Position numbers and translations under genes: made by a program | Assembly (NCBI GenBank): GCA_964489685.1 | Contig: CAZAZR010000001.1 | Coordinates: 732-64,731, forward strand | Reading direction: 5' to 3' | Origin: an uncultured Solibacteraceae bacterium | GTDB lineage: Bacteria > Acidobacteriota > Vicinamibacteria > Vicinamibacterales > SCN-69-37 | DNA length: 64,000 nucleotides | Shown here: positions 15,112-44,632 of the stretch, piece by piece | Layout: each line of letters begins with the position of its first letter | Numbering within the stretch: position 1 is the stretch's first letter | Notes under the pieces: generated by a model | The model's database searches: none | What the model saw: only the letters and a program-made list of their open reading frames with translations | What the model was told of the DNA's origin: nothing

Positions 15112-16104
15112 ATGCGCGGAAGGCGCTTGGGCGCGATGAACATGGAACAGCGAAGAGCAGCAGGTTCAATCCGGAAGGTCGTATTTGTCGTGACCTCTGA
15201 GGGGGCTGACCGGTTTAGCGCGATGACCCGCATCGCCGCGATGTCGGCTCGATTGAGCAATCCGGGTGTCACGCTGGTGGCAGCCAGTGATCAGGATACC
15301 CACGCCGCCCTGCGCGAAGCGGGGCACCCACTCCCGGAAGAGTTTGATGAGTGGATTGTTGTTGAGACTCCGGCCGGGTCCCCGGCCTTCCGGAATCGAT
15401 TCGTCAAGACCAGTCTTCGCAGCGCGATAGACGGCCCGTTCCTGTACCTGGACAATGACGTGCTTGTGCGAGGCGACCTTGGTGAACTGTTTCACCTGGA
15501 CGTCGATTTGGCGGGTGTCGCGAATCATGCGCTTGACCCGCGGGCGATCTCGCGCGTTGATCGGCACGCACTGGAATCCATGGGATGGGAGCCTCGGCCT
15601 GATGTCTACATCAACGGCGGCGTGATGTTCTTCAACGACTCTCCAGCGACGCGTCGATTTTGCGCCGAGTGGCATCGCCGCTGGTTGCGGTCGTCCAGCG
15701 AGTTGTCACTGCACCAGGACCAGCCGGCTCTCAATTCCACACTGTACGATCTGCAGCCGCGGCTTTCGATCTTGCCGACCCGATTCAACGCCCAGTTCAG
15801 AGCCACCATCGGAGTCATCCCGGGCGCGACGATCTGGCACTACTACTCTTCGATGAAGAAACCGCCGGACACACGGTTTGAGCTCCTTACTGATGAGCTG
15901 GTCAGAGGATCGGAACTGGAGACACGCACGGTCCTTGCCATGATCAGAAGTACTCACCCTTGGCGTCGGGCGACCCCGCTCGACGACCTTGCGGCAGCGC
16001 GGATCCTGGCGCACGGTCGTTTTGACGGTTGGGCAGGGCGATGGCTGCGACGCGCGATCGTGCCAGGAGTGAGGCGTCGCCTCGCCAAGATTGTGGGGCG
16101 GTAG
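15112..16104 (+). CDS. Putative nucleotide-diphospho-sugar glycosyltransferase (GT8-like)
   Basis: FLYLDNDVLVRGDL (DxD) and INGGVMFFNDSPATRRF are typical of GT8/GT-A retaining transferases. It is divergent from the upstream operon. Confidence 0.55.
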   Translation: MRGRRLGAMNMEQRRAAGSIRKVVFVVTSEGADRFSAMTRIAAMSARLSNPGVTLVAASDQDTHAALREAGHPLPEEFDEWIVVETPAGSPAFRNRFVKTSLRSAIDGPFLYLDNDVLVRGDLGELFHLDVDLAGVANHALDPRAISRVDRHALESMGWEPRPDVYINGGVMFFNDSPATRRFCAEWHRRWLRSSSELSLHQDQPALNSTLYDLQPRLSILPTRFNAQFRATIGVIPGATIWHYYSSMKKPPDTRFELLTDELVRGSELETRTVLAMIRSTHPWRRATPLDDLAAARILAHGRFDGWAGRWLRRAIVPGVRRRLAKIVGR

Positions 16105-36814: not shown

Positions 36815-38917
36815 GTGAGACACTGCCTTCTTGTGCTGATCCCCTCACTCTGGCGCGGCGGCGTCATTGCGGCCGCCATCGTGATCGCAGGCGGTGCGGC
36901 GATCGCGTCGGCGGCCGAGCCTGGGCCGTCGGCCGGGCAGGCGTTGCTTGACGTGCCCTACGTGACTCAGACACCCGAATTGTGCGGCGGCGCGGCGGTC
37001 GCCATGGTGTTGCGTTATTGGGGGCAACGCGAGGTGTTCGCCGAAGACTTCGCCGCACTCGTCGTCCCCAGCGAGCGTGGCATTCCCACGGGTGCCCTTG
37101 TGGCGGCCGTCCGCGACCGCGCATGGCAGGCCGTGGTGTTGCCGGTCACTGATGATACGGGTCACGCGCGCATTCGCACCGAGGTGGCCCAGGGGCGTCC
37201 GCTCATCGCCTTGATCGAAGTCGCGCCCCGCACCTACCACTACGTCGTCATCGTCGGCGCCACCGGTGATCAGGTGGTGTTGCATGACCCCGCACGGGCG
37301 CCGTTTCGGGTGTTGACGTGGGCAGAGTTCGACCGCGCGTGGGCGGTCACGAATCGCTGGAGCATGCTGATCCTGCCGCCAGAGGCCGGTCGTCTGCTTT
37401 CGCCGCCGGTCACGGTCAAGCCCGCCATACCCGGCCCTGAGGGTCCAGTGACTCCCTGTGACGGGCTCGTCGCGCGCGGCGTGACCCTGGCGCGTGGCGG
37501 TGAGGGTGCGGCGGCCGAGCAGGCACTTGTGGCGGCCACCACCATGTGTCCGAAGAATCCCGTCGCATGGCAGGAACTGGCGGGATGGCGATTCTCCGAG
37601 TCACGGTGGGCCGAGAGCGAGCGTTTTGCGAGCATGGCTGTGCGGCTGGCGCCCACTGACGAGTACGCGCGTCGGCTCCTCGGTACCAGCCGGTATCTGC
37701 TTGGGGATGAGGTCGGCGCTCTGACCGCGTGGACGCCTCTTGGTGAGCCGCGTATCGATGCGATCGACGTGCGGGGCGCCGAGCGCACCCGCCACCCCGT
37801 GGTGGTGAGAGCCACAGGGTTGCAGCCACGTCAACTGCTGACGGCCGACGTGTTCGAGCGTGCGCGGCGGAGACTGGACGCACTGCCGGTTGCCTCGCGT
37901 GCGCGCCTTCAATATGAACCGCTCGATGCCGGCCTGGCCAAAGTCGATGCGGTCATTGCGGAGCGGCCAGTGGTGCCGTGGGGATGGCGGCCGCTGGCCA
38001 CCATCGGCATTCGCGCCGCGGTCAGTCGCGAAGTGCGCGTGGACGTGGCGGGCGCACTGGGAGCCGGCGAATTGGCGGCCTTCTCGTGGCGATGGCGATC
38101 GGCGCGGCCGCGTGTCGCCTTCAGTCTGGCGGTGCCGTCCCCCCACTGGATTCCCGGCGTCGTGTCGGTGACGGGCTTGTGGGAGCGCCAGTCGTACCAG
38201 ACGCCCGCGACGACGGCCGCGGCCGCGGAGCCGCTGGTGGAACGGCGCCGTCGTGCCGGCGTGTCGATGGCTGATTGGGCCACGAGCCGGATCCGGTGGC
38301 ATGGCGGCATCGCGATGGATCGCTTTGACTCGCGTGGCCATGTGGCGCTGGATGGCGGCCTTGAGTTCCGCCTGGCCGGTGATCACGTGGCGCTTGGCAT
38401 GCTGGGCGGCGGTTGGGTCCCGCTCTCGGGCGGCGATCCATTTGCGTCAGGGCGTGTGCGAGCCGCGTGGCGATCGACGATGGAGTTGCATGCGCCCTTG
38501 TGGACGGGCAGCGTGGCGCTTGCGAGTGCGGGGCGGTCGGCGCCGCTGGCGCTGTGGGAAGGGGCCGGCGGCGGGCATGCCCGTTCGGGCCTGCTCCGCG
38601 CCCATCGTCTGCTCACAGACGATGTGGTGACGGGGGAGGCGTTTGGGCGCACGTTTGCGTATGGCACCACGGAGTATGCGCGGCCGGTGGGCCGTGTGAT
38701 GGCTGGTGCCATTGCGGTCGCGGGTTTTGTGGATGTGGCTCGGACCTGGCATCGCCTGAGCACGTCGGACCGATCGGCGCTTCTGGTGGACGCGGGCGCG
38801 GGAGTGAGAATCAGCACGGCGGGCCGCACGGAAGTGTTACGGATCGATGTGGCGCAGGGGCTTCGTGGTGGAGGCACCAGGGTGTCGGTCACATGGGGAC
38901 GCGCCTGGCCGTGGTGA
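36815..38917 (+). CDS. Fusion protein: C39-like (PA2778-type) cysteine peptidase - TPR - POTRA - Omp85/surface-antigen beta-barrel
   Basis: N-terminal hydrophobic segment. Peptidase motifs VPYVTQTPELCGGAAVAMVLRYWG (Gln/Cys) and YHYVVIVGATGDQVVLHDP (His/Asp). TPR-like helices (aa ~215-300). POTRA-like IDAIDVRGAERTRHPVVVRATGLQPRQLLT...ARLQYEPLDAGLAKVDAVIAERP. Barrel motifs GFVDVARTW and GVRISTAGRTEVLRIDVAQGL...VTWGRAWPW (aromatic C-terminus). Confidence 0.75.
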   Translation: MRHCLLVLIPSLWRGGVIAAAIVIAGGAAIASAAEPGPSAGQALLDVPYVTQTPELCGGAAVAMVLRYWGQREVFAEDFAALVVPSERGIPTGALVAAVRDRAWQAVVLPVTDDTGHARIRTEVAQGRPLIALIEVAPRTYHYVVIVGATGDQVVLHDPARAPFRVLTWAEFDRAWAVTNRWSMLILPPEAGRLLSPPVTVKPAIPGPEGPVTPCDGLVARGVTLARGGEGAAAEQALVAATTMCPKNPVAWQELAGWRFSESRWAESERFASMAVRLAPTDEYARRLLGTSRYLLGDEVGALTAWTPLGEPRIDAIDVRGAERTRHPVVVRATGLQPRQLLTADVFERARRRLDALPVASRARLQYEPLDAGLAKVDAVIAERPVVPWGWRPLATIGIRAAVSREVRVDVAGALGAGELAAFSWRWRSARPRVAFSLAVPSPHWIPGVVSVTGLWERQSYQTPATTAAAAEPLVERRRRAGVSMADWATSRIRWHGGIAMDRFDSRGHVALDGGLEFRLAGDHVALGMLGGGWVPLSGGDPFASGRVRAAWRSTMELHAPLWTGSVALASAGRSAPLALWEGAGGGHARSGLLRAHRLLTDDVVTGEAFGRTFAYGTTEYARPVGRVMAGAIAVAGFVDVARTWHRLSTSDRSALLVDAGAGVRISTAGRTEVLRIDVAQGLRGGGTRVSVTWGRAWPW

Positions 38918-39019
38918 GCCGGCGGTGTGCCGAATGGAACAGCGGCTGCGGGCCCGGTTCGGTAACGTGAGGCTGTCTGTCTGGCGCGTATGCCGGGCAC
39001 GAGGTCTCAAGGAGTGAGC

Positions 39020-39400
39020 ATGCGTATTCGAACTGTGTCTGCGGCGTTGATTTTTTCGTTGTGTGTGTGGAGTTCACCGGCCTTCGCGCAGCAGCGGCAC
39101 GTGGTCACTCCGGCCGAGATGCGTCAGGCCATTGCGGGTCAGGCGCAGACCGACCAGCAGAACCGCGAGGCCGTTGTCGGCGTGTTGCAGCGCACGCAGG
39201 TGCGTGAAGTGGCCGGCCGTCTTGGCCTGACCGTGGCGAGTGCCCAAACGGCTGTGGCTACGCTCAACAGCGTCGAGCTGGCGCAGGCTGCCGATGCCGC
39301 CCGCCAGGCCGAGGTGCAGTTGTCGGGCGGCAACACCGTGGTGATTTCGTTGACCACGTTGCTGCTGATCATCATCATTGTGATTTTGGTCGCGGACTGA
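39020..39400 (+). CDS. Secreted, C-terminally anchored small protein (PA2779-family-like) with Gly-Gly immediately before the TM anchor
   Basis: SD aaggag sits 5 nt upstream of ATG 39020. Signal peptide MRIRTVSAALIFSLCVWSSPAFA|QQ. C-terminus ...QAEVQLSGGNTVVISLTTLLLIIIIVILVAD. The family assignment is from memory of the PA2778/PA2779 gene pair. Confidence 0.6.
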   Translation: MRIRTVSAALIFSLCVWSSPAFAQQRHVVTPAEMRQAIAGQAQTDQQNREAVVGVLQRTQVREVAGRLGLTVASAQTAVATLNSVELAQAADAARQAEVQLSGGNTVVISLTTLLLIIIIVILVAD

Positions 39401-39447: not shown

Positions 39448-39525
<78 letters not shown>

Positions 39526-39532
39526 CCTCTCG

Positions 39533-39567
39533 AAGGACTTACGGCACTCGCCGTAAGTCCTTTTTTC
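39533..39567 (+). terminator. Rho-independent terminator of the tRNA gene
   Basis: aaggacttacggc actc gccgtaagtcctt followed by a T-run (tttttt): a 13-bp perfect stem with a 4-nt loop. Confidence 0.85.
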
Positions 39568-39633
39568 GTTGTCGGTCACAGCGTTCAGATCCGTCTCGGG
39601 CGTGAGGTTCAGCCCGAGCTACGTTTTTCGGAT
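39545..39633. repeat. Direct repeat copy 1 (~89 nt), starts inside the tRNA terminator loop
   Basis: cactcgccgtaagtccttttttcgttgtcggtcacagcgttcagatccgtctcgggcgtgaggttcagcccgagctacgtttttcggat. About 90 percent identical to 41392-41478 by hand alignment. Confidence 0.85.
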
Positions 39634-39678: not shown

Positions 39679-40797
39679 CTACCATCGATGTCGCACGCGG
39701 CGCATCAGCCACGGGACGAGTTGGCGCCTGGCGTCGAGGCCCACAAGGCCCGCCGTGAATCGCAGAAAACCAGTGGTTCCAGGATGGCGGCGCCTCGCTC
39801 GTCGCCACCCTCGCCAGAATAACCACAGGTTCACGGCCGGACCGACCGGGCGCGTCTTCACGCGGCATTCCAGGCGGTCTGCCCACGACCCGGGCGAACG
39901 GCCCAACTCCGTCAGTACCGTCGCAGGCACGGCGACGTCCGGCATGTCGGCAACCAGTCGGAGTGCCACCCGCAACTGGTAGGACAGCTGACGCTGTCGT
40001 GCTTCCGCCACGAGCACGTCCCAGGCCAGCGTGTTGCCGGCCCGGCGGAGCACTTCGACCGCGTCGGCCACCCAGGTCCCGGCGTGTACCCGACTCCACC
40101 GCAAACCGTGGATGCAGACGTGCAGCAGTTGATCGGCAGGGCTCAGGACAAGCCAGCGCGTCTGCTCGTCCTCGACGGACACCGTCCGTCGCCAGACCTC
40201 CGCGTCGACGCCGGGCCAGGTGCATTCCTGCAGCAGGTACTGATGCACGTCGAGGGCGCCGCCGTCTGCGGCCGAGTAGCCGAAACTGTGTCGGGCTGTC
40301 TGAGGAAGCGCGCCCGCGGTGTGAGGACACGTCCACTCCAGCCCGGCGAGGATCGCCCGGGCCGGCGAGATCAACGCCGGTTCGACCAGCGCGTCCACGT
40401 CGCCAAATGGTCGCGCCCCGCGATCAGGGTACACGGCGAGTGCGAGCGCGGCGCCCTTGAGCAGAACGGTGCGAATGCCGGCGCGATGGAGGGCCGTCAG
40501 CGCAGGTCTGGCCCGATCGAGGATGAGCTGGTTGCTGGCCCACGCCTCGCGGCGCGCTCGTCGAAGGACGTCGTCAGTCGCCTCAGGTGCGCCAAGTCTC
40601 GCGAGGTTGCCCGCAACCAGCGGCAGCCAGCGCGCCTCGATGGCGGTGAGGGAGGCGGCCGCGGGGCGACCGGACCATTGTCTCCACGCGCGAACCGCAT
40701 CGTCGCTCTGCGCGAGGGCGGCGGTCATGAGCCAGTCGCGCACGGCATCGGGACGGCCAAGCACATCCCGAACGTCCTCCCTGCGGCGTGATCGCAT
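39679..40797 (-). CDS. Nucleotidyltransferase family protein (PF14907 / NTP_transf_5-like)
   Basis: GIRTVLLKGAALALAVYPDRGARPFGDVDALVEPALISPARAILAGLEW ... HGLRW is the core pattern of the 'uncharacterised nucleotidyltransferase' family, which is often linked to RiPP/lasso tailoring. Confidence 0.75.
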   Translation of the reverse strand: MRSRRREDVRDVLGRPDAVRDWLMTAALAQSDDAVRAWRQWSGRPAAASLTAIEARWLPLVAGNLARLGAPEATDDVLRRARREAWASNQLILDRARPALTALHRAGIRTVLLKGAALALAVYPDRGARPFGDVDALVEPALISPARAILAGLEWTCPHTAGALPQTARHSFGYSAADGGALDVHQYLLQECTWPGVDAEVWRRTVSVEDEQTRWLVLSPADQLLHVCIHGLRWSRVHAGTWVADAVEVLRRAGNTLAWDVLVAEARQRQLSYQLRVALRLVADMPDVAVPATVLTELGRSPGSWADRLECRVKTRPVGPAVNLWLFWRGWRRARRRHPGTTGFLRFTAGLVGLDARRQLVPWLMRRVRHRW

Positions 40798-40815
40798 CGA
40801 GGGGAGAGTATAGGA

Positions 40816-41394
40816 CTATCGGCCGTCGAGCTGTTGAAGCAGCAGGGGCGCGACCGTGTGCGCCTCACCGCGCGCGCTTTCGATTGCGTGCGCGCCAAGG
40901 ACCGCCAGGCGCAGGATCGGCATGGTGGACTCGGGGTCGCGTTGCGCCGCGACGGTGTTGTCCATGCACGCCAGCAGCGCACGGGCCGGCGAGAGCGGGC
41001 GCGGGCGCCACCTGGCACTGGGTTGATACCGCGTGACGACGATCGACCCGAGTGGAAGCGGCACGGTGCCGGCCTGGCCACCGAGCGACTCGACCGGAGT
41101 CAAGACGCCGGGCTCGCCGCCGGTGCCTCGAACCGACAGCGGGACCGGGTACGGGTGGACGTGCCCCGCCTTGTCGAGCACCGCAAACTCGTCGGAGTAG
41201 TACGTCGCGCCCGCACGCACCAACGCGCTGACGAGGGTCGTCTTGCCGGTCATCGATCGACCGGGGATGATCAGCGCCCGGCCGCGCCAGCCGACGACAC
41301 CGGCATGAACGAACAGGCAGTCCCGCGCGCGCAGGGCCGTGAGCAGTTCGGCGTGCCGATGAAACGCGGTGAACAGGGTGCCTCCTGACGACAC
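40816..41394 (-). CDS. HPr kinase-like (HprK-related) kinase, apparently lacking the N-terminal domain
   Basis: LFVHAGVVGWRGRALIIPGRSMTGKTTLVSALVRAGATYYSDEFAVLD (P-loop of the HprK C-terminal domain family). There are only 192 aa. Its GTG start (41392-41394) coincides with the first bases of direct repeat copy 2. Confidence 0.7.
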   Translation of the reverse strand: MSSGGTLFTAFHRHAELLTALRARDCLFVHAGVVGWRGRALIIPGRSMTGKTTLVSALVRAGATYYSDEFAVLDKAGHVHPYPVPLSVRGTGGEPGVLTPVESLGGQAGTVPLPLGSIVVTRYQPSARWRPRPLSPARALLACMDNTVAAQRDPESTMPILRLAVLGAHAIESARGEAHTVAPLLLQQLDGR

Positions 41395-41478
41395 TCGCCG
41401 TAAGTCCTTTTTTTATTGTCGGTCACAGCGCTCAGATCCCTCTCGGGCTTGAGGCTCAGCCCGAGCTACGTTTCGGAT
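41392..41478. repeat. Direct repeat copy 2 (~87 nt)
   Basis: cactcgccgtaagtcctttttttattgtcggtcacagcgctcagatccctctcgggcttgaggctcagcccgagctacgtttcggat. It lacks the left arm of the terminator hairpin present at copy 1. Confidence 0.85.
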
Positions 41479-42154
41479 ACGGGGTGGATGCAGTGAAGGA
41501 TCGTGATCGAGGGGCCGACCGGGAAGCTGCCGGTCGTTCTGTATCTGGATCAGGCAGTGCACGCCCTGCGAGTCGGCGATGTGGCCACCGTGGTCGACTT
41601 CGTGGAGCTCCCCTCGTCCGGCCCCGCCGGATGGCGTTTCACTCGCTCACACCGCCACCCACCACCTCGCCAAATAACGGCGGTTGCACGCCCCTCGGAG
41701 TTGGAAGGCGCTACTCCGTCGATCACGGGCGACTGGAGGCGGCCTTGAACAACTCGGTGAGCATCGTAGCGGATCTGCTCCAGGCGGCCGAGGCCGAGCC
41801 GGGTCTCAACCGCGTTGCACGCTTCCAGAGTAGTGCGCGGCGAATTCCGCGGCATGCGTTACCGAATGTCTGACACGACGCGAGTGGATTCCTCGAGAGC
41901 GGCGGGTGTGTGGTGGCAATCCTTCTCGGCTGCGGCGCTTCCCGATCAGCAAGGGCGGGGGCAGAGTCATCATCGACCTTTCCCGCGTCTTCAGGTCTGA
42001 TGCCGATCCTGCTGGCTGGGTGGCCGCCACGGTGCAGGTCCAGGCCTATCCTGGAGGTCAGGGCCGCACGAACGGTTTCAGTGGTACCATGCGCCGGAAG
42101 GCTCCAATCTCCAGCCGCACCAATCACATTTCTCAGATTCTCGAGACCATCATC

Positions 42155-42337
42155 ATGAGCGAGAAAGAGACGCCAATCGTATCCAGGTCGACACCAAATA
42201 CCGGTGAGATTTCAGTCGAGGATCTGGAGACGGTCACTGGGGGTGTTGCGCAGTGCAATGCCCCTGGTGGAATCACGGCGAAGGTCCCGAAGCCCGCCAA
42301 CTTCAGCAGTACCATGATGGAAGGCTCCAACATCTAG
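42155..42337 (+). CDS. 60-aa peptide with canonical double-glycine (bacteriocin/pheromone-type) leader
   Basis: MSEKETPIVSRSTPNTGEISVEDLETVTGG|VAQCNAPGGITAKVPKPANFSSTMMEGSNI. The segment ISVEDLETVTGG fits the LSxxELxxIxGG leader consensus at positions -12, -11, -8 (D for E), -7, -4, -2 and -1. A 120-nt hand count (42121-42240) gives 59 G+C, lower than the flanks. No obvious SD. The stop lies 6 nt before the next gene. Confidence 0.5.
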   Translation: MSEKETPIVSRSTPNTGEISVEDLETVTGGVAQCNAPGGITAKVPKPANFSSTMMEGSNI

Positions 42338-42343
42338 TCGGAC

Positions 42344-44632
42344 GTGACTGACAGATTGTCCCGTCTGGCCCGCCTCTTCGTTCTTCTGATTCTGGTGTCT
42401 GGTCTGCCGTTCGCGGCGGCTCAGGCGTTTGCCCAGGCCGTCGCCCCTCAGGCTGCCGGACGGGGGCCAGTCGTGACGGACATCACAACCATCAACCCGG
42501 AAACGTTTGAGGCCATGGCGGCCCGGTTGCCCTCGGGACGCGCGCCAAAAATCGACGGCGTGCTCGACGACGCGGAGTGGCAGATGGCGCCGGTGCAGGG
42601 GCGATTCATCCAGCGCGAGCCCCACTTCGGCTTTGAGTCCAGCGAGCGGACGGAGTTTCGGATCCTGTACGACGATATGAAGCTCTACATCGGCATCTGG
42701 GCCTACGACTCACTCCCCTCGGGCATCGTCGCCAGCGAACTGAAGCGGGACGCAGGATTACGCAAGGGCGACCAGATCAAGATCACGCTGGATACGTTTC
42801 ACGATCACCGGAACGCCTTCTACTTTTCGACCAATCCCCTCGGCGCGCTCAAGGATGCGCACTCGGTTGAAGAGGGCCGGACGATCAACTACGACTGGAA
42901 CGCCGTGTGGGAGAACCGCACCTCCATCAACGAGCACGGCTGGTACGTGGAGATCGCCGTGCCGCTCAGTCAATTGCGCTTCAAGGGCGGACCGGGTGAC
43001 ACCGTCTGGGGGTTGAACGTCTGCCGCATCATCATCAGGAAGCAGGAAGAAGCCTACTGGGTGCCGTTTCCCCGGGAGTGGCAGGCCATCGGCTTTGCCC
43101 GCATGTCTGGCGCCGGTGTGCTCAAGGGGCTTCGCGATCTGGTGCCGCGACGCCGAGTGGAGTTTGTGCCGTTTGCCAGTCCGCACGTCGTGCGCGACTA
43201 CGATGCCGGCACCCCCACGCGCACGACCAAGGACTTCGGTTTCGATCTCAAAGTCGGCCTGACACAGAGCCTCAATGCCGATGTCACCTACAAGACCGAC
43301 TTCGCGCACGTCGAGGCCGATCAGGAGGTGGTGAACCTGTCCCGGTTCAGCCTCTTCTTTCCGGAAAAGCGCCAGTTCTTCACCGAGGGCGCGGGGATAT
43401 TTGACTACAGCCAGAACGCGGGTGCCAATGCCGGCCCAGGCCTGCTGACGTTGTTCTACAGTCGCCGGGTCGGGTTGCAGGATGGTCGGGAGGTGCCGCT
43501 GCTGGCCGGCGCGAGGGTCACCGGCCGCATCGGCCACACCACCCTTGGCGCGATGAACATTGAAACGGACGCAGCCACACTCGGCAGCGGCGCCAGCGCG
43601 CTCCGCATTCCTCGAGCGAATTACTCGGTGGTGCGCGTGAAACGCGACGTGTTTTCGAAATCGTCAATCGGCGGCATTGTCCTCAATCGGACCGGCGGCG
43701 GACGTCCAGACAATCGGAGCGTGGGGGTGGACGGCGTGTTCACGATTGGCACCCATGTGGACTGGATTGTGGCGGCGGCCAAGACCTTTACGCCTGGCGT
43801 GCGCGGCGGCGACGCGGCGCTGGCCACTCGGCTCCGCTTCACACTGGACCAGTTCGACAGCGGACTGACCTACCTCGATGTTGGTGAGCGTTTTAACGCA
43901 GAGATGGGGTTCATTCCCCGAGTCGACATCCGGACGCTGGGCCTGCAGGCCGCCTGGACCCCTCGTCCGAAGTGGACAGGGGTACGGCAACTGCGTTTCA
44001 ACGTGAACACGTCGTACGTGGAAAACCATGCCGGACGAAGGGAATCGCAGTCCACCGGATTCGACACGATCGTGACCGCCCAGGACAGTTCCAATTACCG
44101 GGTCGGCGTTGAGACGCAGTACGACTTCCTGCCGTTTCACTGGTCGACAGGCGGCGGCGTGATTCCCAGTGCGGGGTATTCATGGCAGACGGTCCGGGCG
44201 TCGTACGGCTCGAACCAGTCGCGGCGGGCGTACGGCAGCGTCGGCGTGGACGTGGGCGGGTACTACAGCGGTGACAAGCAGACGTATCGGGCTGATTTCA
44301 GTGTCGTGCCCAGGGACACGCTCCTCATCGAGAACTTCTATTCCCGAAACCGCATCGTCCTGCCCGCCACGGCCCCCTACGTCACCAATGTGCTGAGCAC
44401 GCGTGTCAGTTACTCCTTTTCTCCGAACCTGTTCGTGAAGAGTTTTGCCCAGTACAACGACGCGACCCGGACGGCCAGTCTGAATCTGCTGCTCTGGTAT
44501 ATCTATCGACCTGGCAGCGACTTCTACGTCGTGTACAAGCAGGGTTGGGAAACAGATGTTCCCGGTCCTCAATCACGGCGGGTGCGGGGACGGTCGCTGG
44601 CAGTGAAGATGACGTACTGGTTGTCGCGCTGA
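42344..44632 (+). CDS. Secreted CBM9-like / DUF5916 family protein
   Basis: Signal peptide LFVLLILVSGLPFAAAQAFA. PKIDGVLDDAEWQMAPVQGRFIQREPHFGFESSERTEFRILYDDMKLYIGIWAYD is the N-terminal CBM9-like signature of this family. The long beta-rich C-terminus ends YWLSR. Confidence 0.65.
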   Translation: MTDRLSRLARLFVLLILVSGLPFAAAQAFAQAVAPQAAGRGPVVTDITTINPETFEAMAARLPSGRAPKIDGVLDDAEWQMAPVQGRFIQREPHFGFESSERTEFRILYDDMKLYIGIWAYDSLPSGIVASELKRDAGLRKGDQIKITLDTFHDHRNAFYFSTNPLGALKDAHSVEEGRTINYDWNAVWENRTSINEHGWYVEIAVPLSQLRFKGGPGDTVWGLNVCRIIIRKQEEAYWVPFPREWQAIGFARMSGAGVLKGLRDLVPRRRVEFVPFASPHVVRDYDAGTPTRTTKDFGFDLKVGLTQSLNADVTYKTDFAHVEADQEVVNLSRFSLFFPEKRQFFTEGAGIFDYSQNAGANAGPGLLTLFYSRRVGLQDGREVPLLAGARVTGRIGHTTLGAMNIETDAATLGSGASALRIPRANYSVVRVKRDVFSKSSIGGIVLNRTGGGRPDNRSVGVDGVFTIGTHVDWIVAAAKTFTPGVRGGDAALATRLRFTLDQFDSGLTYLDVGERFNAEMGFIPRVDIRTLGLQAAWTPRPKWTGVRQLRFNVNTSYVENHAGRRESQSTGFDTIVTAQDSSNYRVGVETQYDFLPFHWSTGGGVIPSAGYSWQTVRASYGSNQSRRAYGSVGVDVGGYYSGDKQTYRADFSVVPRDTLLIENFYSRNRIVLPATAPYVTNVLSTRVSYSFSPNLFVKSFAQYNDATRTASLNLLLWYIYRPGSDFYVVYKQGWETDVPGPQSRRVRGRSLAVKMTYWLSR

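What the first reader, a model, noticed from the sequence alone, without database searches (positions are those of the whole stretch)
42155..42337. Orphan 60-aa ORF with a textbook double-glycine leader in a locally A/T-richer patch
Seen in the sequence:
- The ORF reads MSEKETPIVSRSTPNTGEISVEDLETVTGG-VAQCNAPGGITAKVPKPANFSSTMMEGSNI.
- The 12 residues before GG (ISVEDLETVTGG) match the LSxxELxxIxGG leader consensus of class II bacteriocins, GG-type peptide pheromones and some RiPPs at nearly every constrained position.
- The ORF lies in a stretch with 59 G+C in 120 nt (hand count, 42121-42240), versus 77 in 120 for a typical coding sample at 15481-15600.
- It ends 6 nt before a secreted CBM9/DUF5916 gene.

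No peptidase-containing ABC transporter is present in the window. The only C39-type domain is the Omp85 fusion 3.2 kb upstream. The 30-aa core, with a single Cys and several Ser/Thr, could be a signalling peptide, a linear bacteriocin or a RiPP core.
Basis: partly seen in the sequence, partly recalled or inferred. Interest (0 to 1): 0.66.

Follow-up and report, generated by a model that had tools for sequence, protein, structure and literature searches.

The report
Strain-specific double-glycine leader peptide gene
This 60-codon reading frame in a Vicinamibacterales (Acidobacteriota) genome carries the same cut-and-export tag as several other scattered small peptide genes of that genome, whose matching exporter is encoded on another contig; it is an ordinary kind of gene, but this copy is unique to one strain and is not shown to be expressed.

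Summary
The ORF at 42155-42337 is real and reads as reported.

Its 30-residue N-terminal half is not a chance motif:
- It shares the start MSExE[T/K] and the block E-h-S-x-x-D/E-L-x-x-V-x-G-G with at least five other ~60-aa ORFs of the same genome.
- Two of those ORFs belong to families that are conserved in other Vicinamibacterales.

The genome also encodes, on contig C116, a complete NHLP-type peptidase-containing ABC export system (TIGR03794/03796/03797, all above curated cut-offs). In 41 related genomes, strong hits to this leader family occur only in genomes that have such an exporter.

Best reading (about 0.55): ORF60 is one member of a dispersed, hypervariable set of double-glycine-leader peptides, cut after Gly30 and exported by that transporter.

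Evidence against a working gene:
- The 30-aa core has no homologue anywhere.
- There is no Shine-Dalgarno site, while four sister genes checked have one.
- Codon usage is borderline.
- The locus is a recently scrambled, decayed junction.

A relic is therefore a serious rival (about 0.3). The nearby C39-Omp85 fusion and the truncated kinase/nucleotidyltransferase cassette are probably unrelated. This is a new member of a known kind, of modest interest.

The parts
42155..42337 (+). ORF60: 60-codon candidate precursor peptide gene (ATG ... TAG)
   Evidence: It is the best of the six frames by a codon-usage log-likelihood ratio, +0.10 per codon. That value is borderline: the 5th percentile of real genes is 0.15 and the 95th percentile of off-frame sequence is 0.12. 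G+C by codon position is 0.48/0.51/0.67.
42155..42244 (+). Leader, 30 residues: MSEKETPIVSRSTPNTGEISVEDLETVTGG. The predicted cleavage site is after Gly30.
   Evidence: The MSExE[T/K] start and the E-h-S-x-x-D-L-x-x-V-x-G-G block are shared with the peptide genes on C19, C37, C105, C142 and C182 and with their relatives P0007-P0012 and P0016-P0023. Shuffle tests give p <= 0.0016 against four other leaders. hhalign against the C105 family gives E 1e-4, probability 57%.
42245..42334 (+). Core, 30 residues: VAQCNAPGGITAKVPKPANFSSTMMEGSNI. It has one Cys and five Ser/Thr and is not hydrophobic.
   Evidence: No homologue was found. It is not significantly similar to the C105-family cores (p 0.07-0.66).
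42138..42154 (+). Upstream 17 nt (ctcgagaccatcatc before the ATG) with no Shine-Dalgarno match
   Evidence: The four sister genes checked have AGGAGG, AGGAGA, GGAGG or GAGGA 4-5 nt before their ATG.
42344..44632 (+). Downstream neighbour, a secreted DUF5916/CBM9-like protein 6 nt after the ORF60 stop. Co-transcription is inferred. It is context, not a partner.
   Evidence: Orthologues of 70-81% identity in sister species lie next to an MFS transporter gene instead and have no ORF60. The MFS orthologue of this genome is on contig C2.
41503..41640 (+). Decayed remnant of a small DUF4926-like gene that follows tRNA-Met in genome G001. It marks the left edge of the roughly 0.8 kb of strain-specific sequence (about 41640-42455) that holds ORF60.

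Best explanation
ORF60 is a precursor of a small secreted peptide. It is one member of a dispersed, fast-diversifying set of ~60-aa double-glycine-leader peptide genes in this Vicinamibacterales bacterium.

Proposed mechanism:
- The 30-residue leader forms the recognition element for the C39 peptidase domain of the NHLP-type ABC exporter encoded on contig C116. That system has three parts: TIGR03796 (peptidase/permease/ATPase), TIGR03797 (second ABC subunit) and TIGR03794 (HlyD-like adaptor).
- The exporter cuts after Gly29-Gly30 and exports the 30-residue core VAQC...GSNI.
- The released peptide would act outside the cell as an unmodified or lightly modified bacteriocin-like or signalling peptide.

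Shown here:
- The ORF exists.
- Its leader resembles sister genes and conserved families.
- A complete exporter is present in the genome.
- The leader family co-occurs with such exporters in related genomes.

Inferred, not shown:
- Transcription, probably on the same RNA as the DUF5916 gene 6 nt downstream.
- Translation from ATG 42155.
- Cleavage, export and activity.
For: Leader family within the genome:
- Leader pattern counts in the six-frame genome exceed expectation.
- There are five to six sister ORFs of the same build: C19, C37, C105, C142 and C182.
- Shuffle tests of the leader give p <= 0.0016 against four of them.
- BLASTP against the C105 family gives E 3e-4, and hhalign E 1e-4. 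Both share MSExET...GGVAQ.

The family is real:
- The C105- and C182-type families are conserved in other metagenomes and in a named Vicinamibacterales MAG, with conserved cores and conserved gene order.
- A sister species, G016, has at least five dispersed ~60-aa GG-leader genes with unrelated cores. Lack of core conservation is therefore normal for this set.

Exporter:
- Contig C116 encodes TIGR03796 (1057 bits, cut-off 853), TIGR03797 (758, cut-off 709) and TIGR03794 (244, cut-off 156).
- The catalytic Cys (ECGAAC) and His (NHFVVV) are readable in the sequence.
- Strong family hits (E < 1e-3) occur in 3 of 7 genomes with a strong C39-ABC hit and in 0 of 34 without one.

The ORF itself:
- The reading frame is the best of six by codon usage, and G+C at codon position 3 exceeds positions 1 and 2.
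- The identical locus is found in nine independent metagenome assemblies, so it is not an assembly artefact.
Against: - There is no Shine-Dalgarno site, unlike the four sister genes checked, and no sigma-70-like promoter match in 41350-42500.
- The codon-usage score of +0.10 lies below the 5th percentile of real genes.
- No homologue of the whole peptide or of its core exists in 1.84 and 5.8 billion proteins, nor in 60 relatives.
- A leader HMM built without ORF60 finds it only at E 8.9.
- All nine metagenome copies are 100% identical in DNA, so selection cannot be measured.
- The locus is a junkyard. It holds a relocated DUF5916 gene, a decayed DUF4926-like gene, and a 5'-truncated kinase gene inside an 89-nt direct-repeat-bracketed insertion.
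- One sister gene (C105) is demonstrably truncated in this genome, so decay of such genes does occur here.
- The exporter is on another contig and no experiment links it to this leader.
Confidence: 0.55

Rival explanations
1. Relic: ORF60 descends from a genuine GG-leader peptide gene but is no longer expressed. It is a stranded copy that lost its ribosome-binding site and promoter when the region was rearranged, and it survives as an open frame only because the event is recent.
For: - No Shine-Dalgarno site, against four of four sister genes checked.
- Borderline codon usage and low G+C.
- It sits between a decayed DUF4926-like gene and a relocated DUF5916 gene, next to a truncated HprK-like gene.
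- The sister C105 gene of the same genome lost its 3' half and the adjacent FAD monooxygenase gene.
- No orthologue exists anywhere.
Against: - All recognition residues of the leader are intact: hydrophobic at -4, -7 and -12, and GG.
- The 60 codons are uninterrupted.
- The intact DUF5916 gene only 6 nt downstream needs a transcript that very probably covers ORF60 (inference).
- Hypervariable cores without orthologues are the rule in this set.
Confidence: 0.3
2. Chance ORF: an open frame in G+C-rich non-coding DNA that happens to contain a GG-like motif.
For: - Long open frames are common at this G+C. The frame is open for 167 codons, which is not significant by my own estimate.
- A leave-one-out leader HMM gives E 8.9.
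- No curated model passes its cut-off.
- The scan covers very many windows, so isolated motif matches are expected.
Against: - Two independent features coincide in the right geometry: the MSExE[T/K] start, found 3 times in 8.67 million residues and always on GG-leader ORFs, and the strict GG block 17 residues later.
- Leader shuffle tests give p <= 0.0016 against four sister genes.
- The other six strict motif matches in the genome all lie inside long proteins rather than in ~60-aa ORFs.
Confidence: 0.08
3. Local system: ORF60 is the substrate of neighbouring genes. Either it is cut by the periplasmic C39-TPR-POTRA-Omp85 fusion (36815-38917), or it is tailored by the HprK-like kinase and PF14907 nucleotidyltransferase (39679-41394) as a RiPP precursor.
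For: - Proximity, at 0.8-3.2 kb.
- C39 enzymes cut after GG.
- GG-leader genes of this family lie 6-9 kb from HprK/PqqD/NTP_transf_5 clusters in other Vicinamibacterales.
Against: - ORF60 has no signal peptide to reach a periplasmic or outer-membrane peptidase (read from the sequence).
- The C39-Omp85 gene is present in 10 of the 20 relatives searched, 9 of them in the same genus, and ORF60 was found in none of the 40-60 relatives searched. In G001 the same C39-Omp85/PA2779/tRNA-Met block is followed by other genes.
- The kinase ORF starts inside an 89-nt direct repeat and lacks roughly the first 87 profile positions.
- No PqqD partner is present, and the two-gene cassette is an insertion next to tRNA-Met.
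- It is on the opposite strand.
Confidence: 0.04
4. Longer protein: the true product is the 82-aa (ATG 42089) or 143-aa (GTG 41906) protein that gene callers annotated, and it is unrelated to GG-leader peptides.
For: - The frame is open, and public annotations use these starts.
- The upstream extension has a similar borderline codon score, +0.075.
Against: - The extension has no homologue and no domain hit.
- Neither upstream start has a Shine-Dalgarno site.
- The family-typical N-terminus MSExE[T/K] begins exactly at ATG 42155.
Confidence: 0.03

Closest known systems
Double-glycine leader peptides (class II bacteriocins and peptide pheromones; NCBIfam TIGR01847 leader domain) cut and exported by peptidase-containing ABC transporters such as ComA, LagD or LahT (PMC6363468)
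   Same: It has a short N-terminal leader with an acidic/hydrophobic pattern ending in Gly-Gly, a core of about 30 residues, and no signal peptide. A C39-ABC transporter is present in the genome.
   Different: No curated leader model reaches its cut-off. The organism is a diderm Acidobacterium. The gene is not next to its transporter, an immunity gene or a regulator. The core is not hydrophobic or cationic like typical class II bacteriocins.
NHLP and Nif11-type precursors with the TIGR03794/03796/03797 export system (Haft, Basu and Mitchell 2010, PMC2887384), including dispersed precursor sets such as the prochlorosins
   Same: The same three-gene exporter type is present. The same 13-residue block precedes GG. 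The genes are multiple, scattered, have hypervariable cores and share a leader. A relative, G024, has true NHLP precursors ending ELSDSDLEKVAGG beside a LanM gene and the exporter. One C182-type core occurs under a Nif11-type leader (P0022).
   Different: The leader is only 30 residues and lacks the nitrile-hydratase-like or Nif11-like domain; there is no PF07862 or TIGR03793/03798 hit. No LanM, cyclodehydratase or NHLP precursor was found in this genome.
Cyanobacterial double-glycine bacteriocin precursors (Wang et al. 2011, PMC3140520; NCBIfam NF038167 'CTB family bacteriocin')
   Same: This is the only curated model that touches ORF60, and it does so over the leader (residues 17-35). These are Gram-negative producers with short GG-leader peptides.
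   Different: The score is 14.4 bits against a cut-off of 32 (E 0.033), and there is no similarity in the core.
PA2778-family C39 peptidase and PA2779-family partner (NF033920 / NF033919), here as a C39-TPR-POTRA-Omp85 fusion 3.2 kb upstream
   Same: It is a GG-specific type of peptidase in the same neighbourhood.
   Different: That pair is found in relatives that lack ORF60. The peptidase is predicted to lie outside the cytoplasm, whereas ORF60 has no export signal other than the GG leader.

Membership tests
GG-leader bacteriocin/pheromone precursors (TIGR01847 bacteriocin_sig domain) | Match to the curated leader model at or above its cut-off (15.7 bits) | tested here: not met
   hmmscan at E <= 10 lists no TIGR01847 hit for ORF60. 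The sister C37 peptide reaches 12.8 bits.
GG-leader bacteriocin/pheromone precursors (TIGR01847 bacteriocin_sig domain) | Consensus residues before the cut site: hydrophobic at -4, -7 and -12, Ser/Thr at -11, acidic at -8 and -13, Gly-Gly at -2/-1 | tested here: met
   The sequence E(-13) I(-12) S(-11) V E D(-8) L(-7) E T V(-4) T G G is read directly. It was compared with the logo described in PMC2887384.
GG-leader bacteriocin/pheromone precursors (TIGR01847 bacteriocin_sig domain) | A peptidase-containing ABC transporter (C39 + ABC) in the same organism | tested here: met
   C116:9686-12016 matches PF03412 at 126 bits and TIGR03796 at 1057 bits, full length. It is not adjacent to ORF60, so a cognate relationship is inferred only.
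GG-leader bacteriocin/pheromone precursors (TIGR01847 bacteriocin_sig domain) | Cleavage after Gly-Gly and export of the core | not testable with these tools
   This needs an in vitro protease assay or peptidomics.
NHLP / Nif11-type precursors (TIGR03793, TIGR03798, PF07862) | Long leader (about 70-90 aa) homologous to the nitrile hydratase alpha subunit or to Nif11 | tested here: not met
   The leader is 30 aa and has no Pfam or NCBIfam hit. phmmer with a true NHLP precursor from G024 finds nothing in this genome.
NHLP / Nif11-type precursors (TIGR03793, TIGR03798, PF07862) | Co-occurrence with the TIGR03794/03796/03797 export genes | tested here: met
   All three are above their cut-offs on C116. 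The leader family is enriched in exporter-positive relatives.
Class II lanthipeptide precursors | A LanM-type synthetase in the genome, and Cys plus Ser/Thr in the core | tested here: not met
   tblastn with the G024 LanM finds nothing in the genome. The core has one Cys, but the cores of sister peptides often have none.
CTB family bacteriocin (NF038167) | Model score at or above 32 bits | tested here: not met
   14.4 bits, E 0.033, over leader residues 17-35 only.
HprK-like kinase / PF14907 nucleotidyltransferase / PqqD peptide-modification systems (lasso-related) | An intact kinase, a PqqD-type recognition protein, and a precursor in the same operon | tested here: not met
   The kinase ORF covers only profile positions 88-160 and starts inside a direct repeat. 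No PqqD gene is present in the locus. ORF60 is on the opposite strand.

The most novel reading that the evidence does not exclude
The short MSExE...ELSxxDLxxVxGG leader is a mobile export cassette. In exporter-bearing Vicinamibacterales it keeps being joined to new sequence at rearrangement junctions. ORF60 would then be a newly born secreted peptide: an old leader fused to a core that arose from previously non-coding or scrambled DNA, read on the transcript of a relocated gene. That would make this genus a natural system for watching the birth and death of secreted peptides. ORF60 would be the newborn, the truncated C105 gene the dying copy, and C182 and C105 in sister genomes the conserved ones.
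Probability: 0.15. Interest if true: 0.6.

Novelty: new member of a known kind. Interest (0 to 1): 0.35.

Why it matters
If it is expressed, ORF60 adds a strain-specific secreted peptide to a poorly studied, uncultured soil and freshwater lineage.

The wider result matters more than this single ORF:
- Some Vicinamibacterales carry an NHLP-type exporter without NHLP or Nif11 precursors, but with a scattered set of short-leader GG peptides.
- These peptides are unannotated or mis-started in public records. Here the ORF is called as 82 or 143 aa.
- Two subfamilies have conserved cores next to candidate tailoring enzymes: a WbsX-type glycosyltransferase plus GT2, and an FAD monooxygenase.

This gives concrete substrates to test for an exporter class whose cargo is usually guessed. 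For the finding itself the biology is conventional.

Tried and rejected
Searches for homologues of ORF60:
- Own genome: only a weak hit to C105, E 0.4.
- 40 and 60 relatives, by protein and by DNA: nothing over the ORF.
- 5.8 billion clustered proteins: only itself.
- phmmer against 1.84 billion representatives: only itself.

Selection test (dN/dS): impossible, because nine metagenome contigs are 100% identical in DNA.

Tests that gave nothing or were not significant:
- The leave-one-out leader HMM was not significant, E 8.9.
- Core similarity to the C105 family was rejected, p 0.07-0.66.
- Rfam found no family in 41300-42500 at E <= 1.
- The promoter scan found none.

Other candidate readings of the surrounding DNA, all rejected:
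- The antisense ORF 42133-42333, and ORFs 41484-41873, 41550-41855 and 41723-42127, have no domain hits.
- The minus-strand ORF upstream is not a relic of the nitroreductase that precedes the C105-family genes.
- No PqqD partner of the kinase cassette exists in the window; the only PqqD-like hit is on C35.

Chance or ambiguous motif matches:
- The C168 match lies inside a cyclophilin-type gene.
- The C86 match is in frame with the end of a NUDIX gene (profile E 0.0015).

Breakpoint upstream of DUF5916: I first thought it lay inside the signal-peptide codons. That region is too divergent among the orthologues themselves to say so.

Full report
**1. The observation**

The ORF is there as described: ATG 42155 to TAG 42337 on the + strand, 60 codons, with exactly the reported translation.
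- It is 55.7% G+C in a window that averages 64%.
The comparison sample has 75 G+C, not 77.
- The stop lies 6 nt before the GTG of a 762-aa DUF5916/CBM9-like protein with a signal peptide.
- The frame is open upstream to GTG 41906, with an ATG at 42089. Public gene callers recorded 82-aa and 143-aa versions.

**2. The neighbourhood**

Gene order around the ORF:
- 36815-38917 (+): PA2778-family C39 peptidase fused to TPR and an Omp85-like end.
- 38990-39400 (+): PA2779-family protein.
- 39448-39524: tRNA-Met.
- 39679-40797 (-): PF14907 nucleotidyltransferase.
- 40816-41394 (-): HprK-related kinase.
- ORF60, then the DUF5916 gene.

The nucleotidyltransferase and kinase are an inserted and truncated fragment:
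- They are bracketed by an 89-nt direct repeat, 39538-39626 and 41385-41473, 91% identical.
- The kinase ORF starts inside the second repeat copy. It matches only profile positions 88-160 of TIGR04352.
- The PqqD-type partner that precedes the orthologous pair in genome G016 is missing here.

ORF60 lies in about 0.8 kb of strain-specific sequence:
- In G001 the same C39-Omp85/PA2779/tRNA-Met block is followed directly by a DUF4926-like small gene. Window 41503-41640 is a decayed remnant of that gene.
- From about 41640 to about 42455 the sequence has no counterpart in 60 related genomes.

The DUF5916 gene has been relocated:
- Its orthologues (70-81% identity) in G016, G001 and G002 sit divergently next to an MFS transporter gene, with a short spacer and no small ORF.
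- In this genome the MFS orthologue (94% identity) is on contig C2. It is followed by the gene that lies downstream of DUF5916 in G001.
- So ORF60 sits at a recent rearrangement junction.
- The arrangement is not an assembly error. Nine independent metagenome contigs carry it with 100% identical DNA, which also rules out any selection test.

**3. Is the leader more than chance?**

Curated models say little. The best hit is NF038167 at 14.4 bits against a cut-off of 32, and nothing comes from TIGR01847 or Pfam. The genome itself is more informative.

Pattern counts in the six-frame translation:
- The strict leader pattern occurs 9 times in 8.67 million residues (1.6 expected). Six matches are inside long proteins. 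Three are in ~60-aa ORFs with the motif 17-19 residues after an ATG and 30-33 residues before the stop: ORF60, C19:34550-34738 and C182:4473-4658.
- Relaxed patterns and a profile add C37:30-227, C105:7148-7354 and C142:33-251.
- MSE.E[TK] occurs exactly three times in the whole six-frame translation (0.63 expected): at the starts of ORF60, C105 and C182. The pattern was chosen after seeing the sequences, so its weight lies in the absence of any other match.

Similarity tests:
- Global alignment of the ORF60 leader to each of four sister leaders beats 5000 composition-preserving shuffles at p <= 0.0016.
- BLASTP and hhalign against the C105 family give E 3e-4 and 1e-4 for single comparisons. 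The alignment covers MSExET...GGVAQ.
- A leader HMM built without ORF60 finds it only at E 8.9. The case therefore rests on several moderate signals, not one strong one.
- The cores are not similar.

**4. Are the sister genes real?**

Yes, for at least two families.
- C182 type. The core ...SLKAGASEVLMETV... recurs in other metagenomes under several leaders, one of them a Nif11-type leader. In two loci the gene lies a few nucleotides upstream of a WbsX-type glycosyltransferase gene.
- C105 type. The core VGLNxVAPKxPGRxSxFGDxPGLNGGDMM recurs in a named Vicinamibacterales MAG and in many contigs. In the loci examined it lies 13-14 nt upstream of an FAD monooxygenase gene; where the contig extends further, a 3-keto-disaccharide-hydrolase-like gene follows.
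- In this genome the C105 copy has lost its 3' half together with the monooxygenase gene.
- The four sister genes checked have a Shine-Dalgarno site 4-5 nt before the ATG. ORF60 has none.

**5. The exporter**

- Contig C116 encodes the three-gene NHLP-type export system, all above curated cut-offs: TIGR03796 with its C39 domain (1057 bits), TIGR03797 (758 bits) and TIGR03794 (244 bits).
- The contig ends inside the HlyD-like gene.
- Haft et al. (PMC2887384) tied this system to precursors whose last 13 leader residues look like class II bacteriocin leaders. ORF60 fits that logo at all listed positions but one.
- No NHLP precursor and no LanM gene is present in this genome.

Distribution among 41 genomes of the order:
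- A strong C39-ABC hit occurs in seven.
- Strong hits to a profile of the leader family (E < 1e-3) occur in three, all exporter-positive: this genome with 7 hits, G016 with 8 and G024 with 3. None of the 34 exporter-negative genomes has a strong hit.
- G016 shows the same layout: at least five scattered ~60-aa GG-leader genes with unrelated cores.
- In G024 the profile hits nearest the exporter are true NHLP precursors beside a LanM gene, about 10 kb from it.

**6. Reading**

The most economical explanation is that ORF60 belongs to a dispersed, hypervariable set of GG-leader peptides served by the C116 exporter. Lack of an orthologous core is then expected rather than damning.

What keeps confidence near 0.55:
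- No ribosome-binding site or promoter match.
- A codon-usage score of +0.10 per codon. Real genes average 0.42 with a 5th percentile of 0.15, and the off-frame 95th percentile is 0.12.
- The decayed surroundings.
- Proven decay of a sister gene in the same genome.

Hence a relic is the main rival (0.3). Pure chance is unlikely (0.08).

A functional tie to the C39-Omp85 fusion or to the truncated kinase cassette is unlikely (0.04):
- The peptidase gene occurs in 10 of the 20 relatives searched, and ORF60 was found in no relative.
- ORF60 has no route to the periplasm other than the GG leader.
- The kinase cassette is an incomplete insertion on the other strand.

The start at 42155 is favoured over 42089 or 41906 because the family N-terminus begins there.

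**7. Novelty and score**

GG-leader peptides and their exporters are textbook, so this is a new member of a known kind. The mildly new aspect is the pairing, in Acidobacteriota, of an NHLP-type exporter with a scattered set of short-leader peptides that public annotation misses or mis-starts. Interest 0.35.

**8. Limits**

- The MAG is in 300 contigs.
- Profile searches of relatives pass through a loose first filter, so absences are not absolute.
- The taxonomic label comes from earlier notes of this scan and from the source name of P0016.

Noticed in passing
window 39538-39626 and 41385-41473: An 89-nt direct repeat (91% identical) starts just after tRNA-Met. It brackets the PF14907 nucleotidyltransferase and a 5'-truncated HprK-related kinase. 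This is an incomplete inserted copy of a PqqD/kinase/nucleotidyltransferase system that is complete in G016 and, per earlier notes, elsewhere in this genome.
   Followed up: partly
window 42344-44632; genome contig C2:71376-73281 and C2:76163-76498: The DUF5916 gene has moved. In three sister species it lies between an MFS gene and a 138-aa secreted-protein gene. In this genome those two genes are adjacent on contig C2 without it, and a decayed DUF5916-like fragment lies 3 kb further on.
   Followed up: partly
genome contig C182:4473-4658, with relatives P0007, P0010, P0011, P0018, P0020-P0023 (L074): This GG-leader family has a conserved core ...(S/A)LKAGASEVLME(T)V... attached to different leaders, including a Nif11-type one. 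In this genome and in L074 the gene lies 3-7 nt upstream of a WbsX-type glycosyltransferase gene; in this genome a GT2 gene follows. It may be a glycosylated (glycocin-like) peptide system.
   Followed up: partly
genome contig C105:7148-7354; L065, L080-L084: This GG-leader family has the conserved core VGLNxVAPKxPGRxSxFGDxPGLNGGDMM(I/S)K. In the loci examined it lies 13-14 nt upstream of an FAD-dependent monooxygenase gene, followed in L080-L084 by a 3-keto-disaccharide-hydrolase-like gene. In this genome a deletion removed the 3' half of the peptide gene and the monooxygenase gene.
   Followed up: partly
L080-L084 (G016 = GCA_016716905.1 and relatives); L022: GG-leader peptide loci lie 6-9 kb from HprK-like/PqqD/NTP_transf_5/Transglut_core3 clusters in several Vicinamibacterales. 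In G016 the WbsX and GT2 genes lie about 6 kb from the PqqD-kinase-nucleotidyltransferase cluster. This loose neighbourhood recurs and is unexplained.
   Followed up: no
L072 (G024:C1:1028000-1047000): A class II lanthipeptide locus: a 1109-aa LanM-like gene with two NHLP-type precursors (one 110 aa) ending ELSDSDLEKVAGG and sharing an identical 27-aa core, about 10 kb from an NHLP-type C39-ABC exporter.
   Followed up: no
window 42096-42120 and 42319-42343: A 25-nt imperfect direct repeat (20 of 25 identical), GGAAGGCTCCAA..., lies just after ATG 42089 and at the end of ORF60, 223 nt apart. It may be chance or a trace of the rearrangement.
   Followed up: no
window 41503-41694; G000:C160:5619-5757; G001:C63, G022, G047, G050: Parts of this stretch recur at 77-92% identity in other contigs and genomes. 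Logan assemblies break at about 41571. It is probably a short dispersed repeat overlapping the decayed DUF4926-like gene.
   Followed up: no
genome contig C86:8474-9193 (-): A GG-leader-like peptide (MNHDNPEDD...IADGDLERVAGG|VGINPQQ...) is in frame with, and without a stop after, a NUDIX hydrolase gene. It could be a fusion, a lost stop codon or chance (profile E 0.0015).
   Followed up: no
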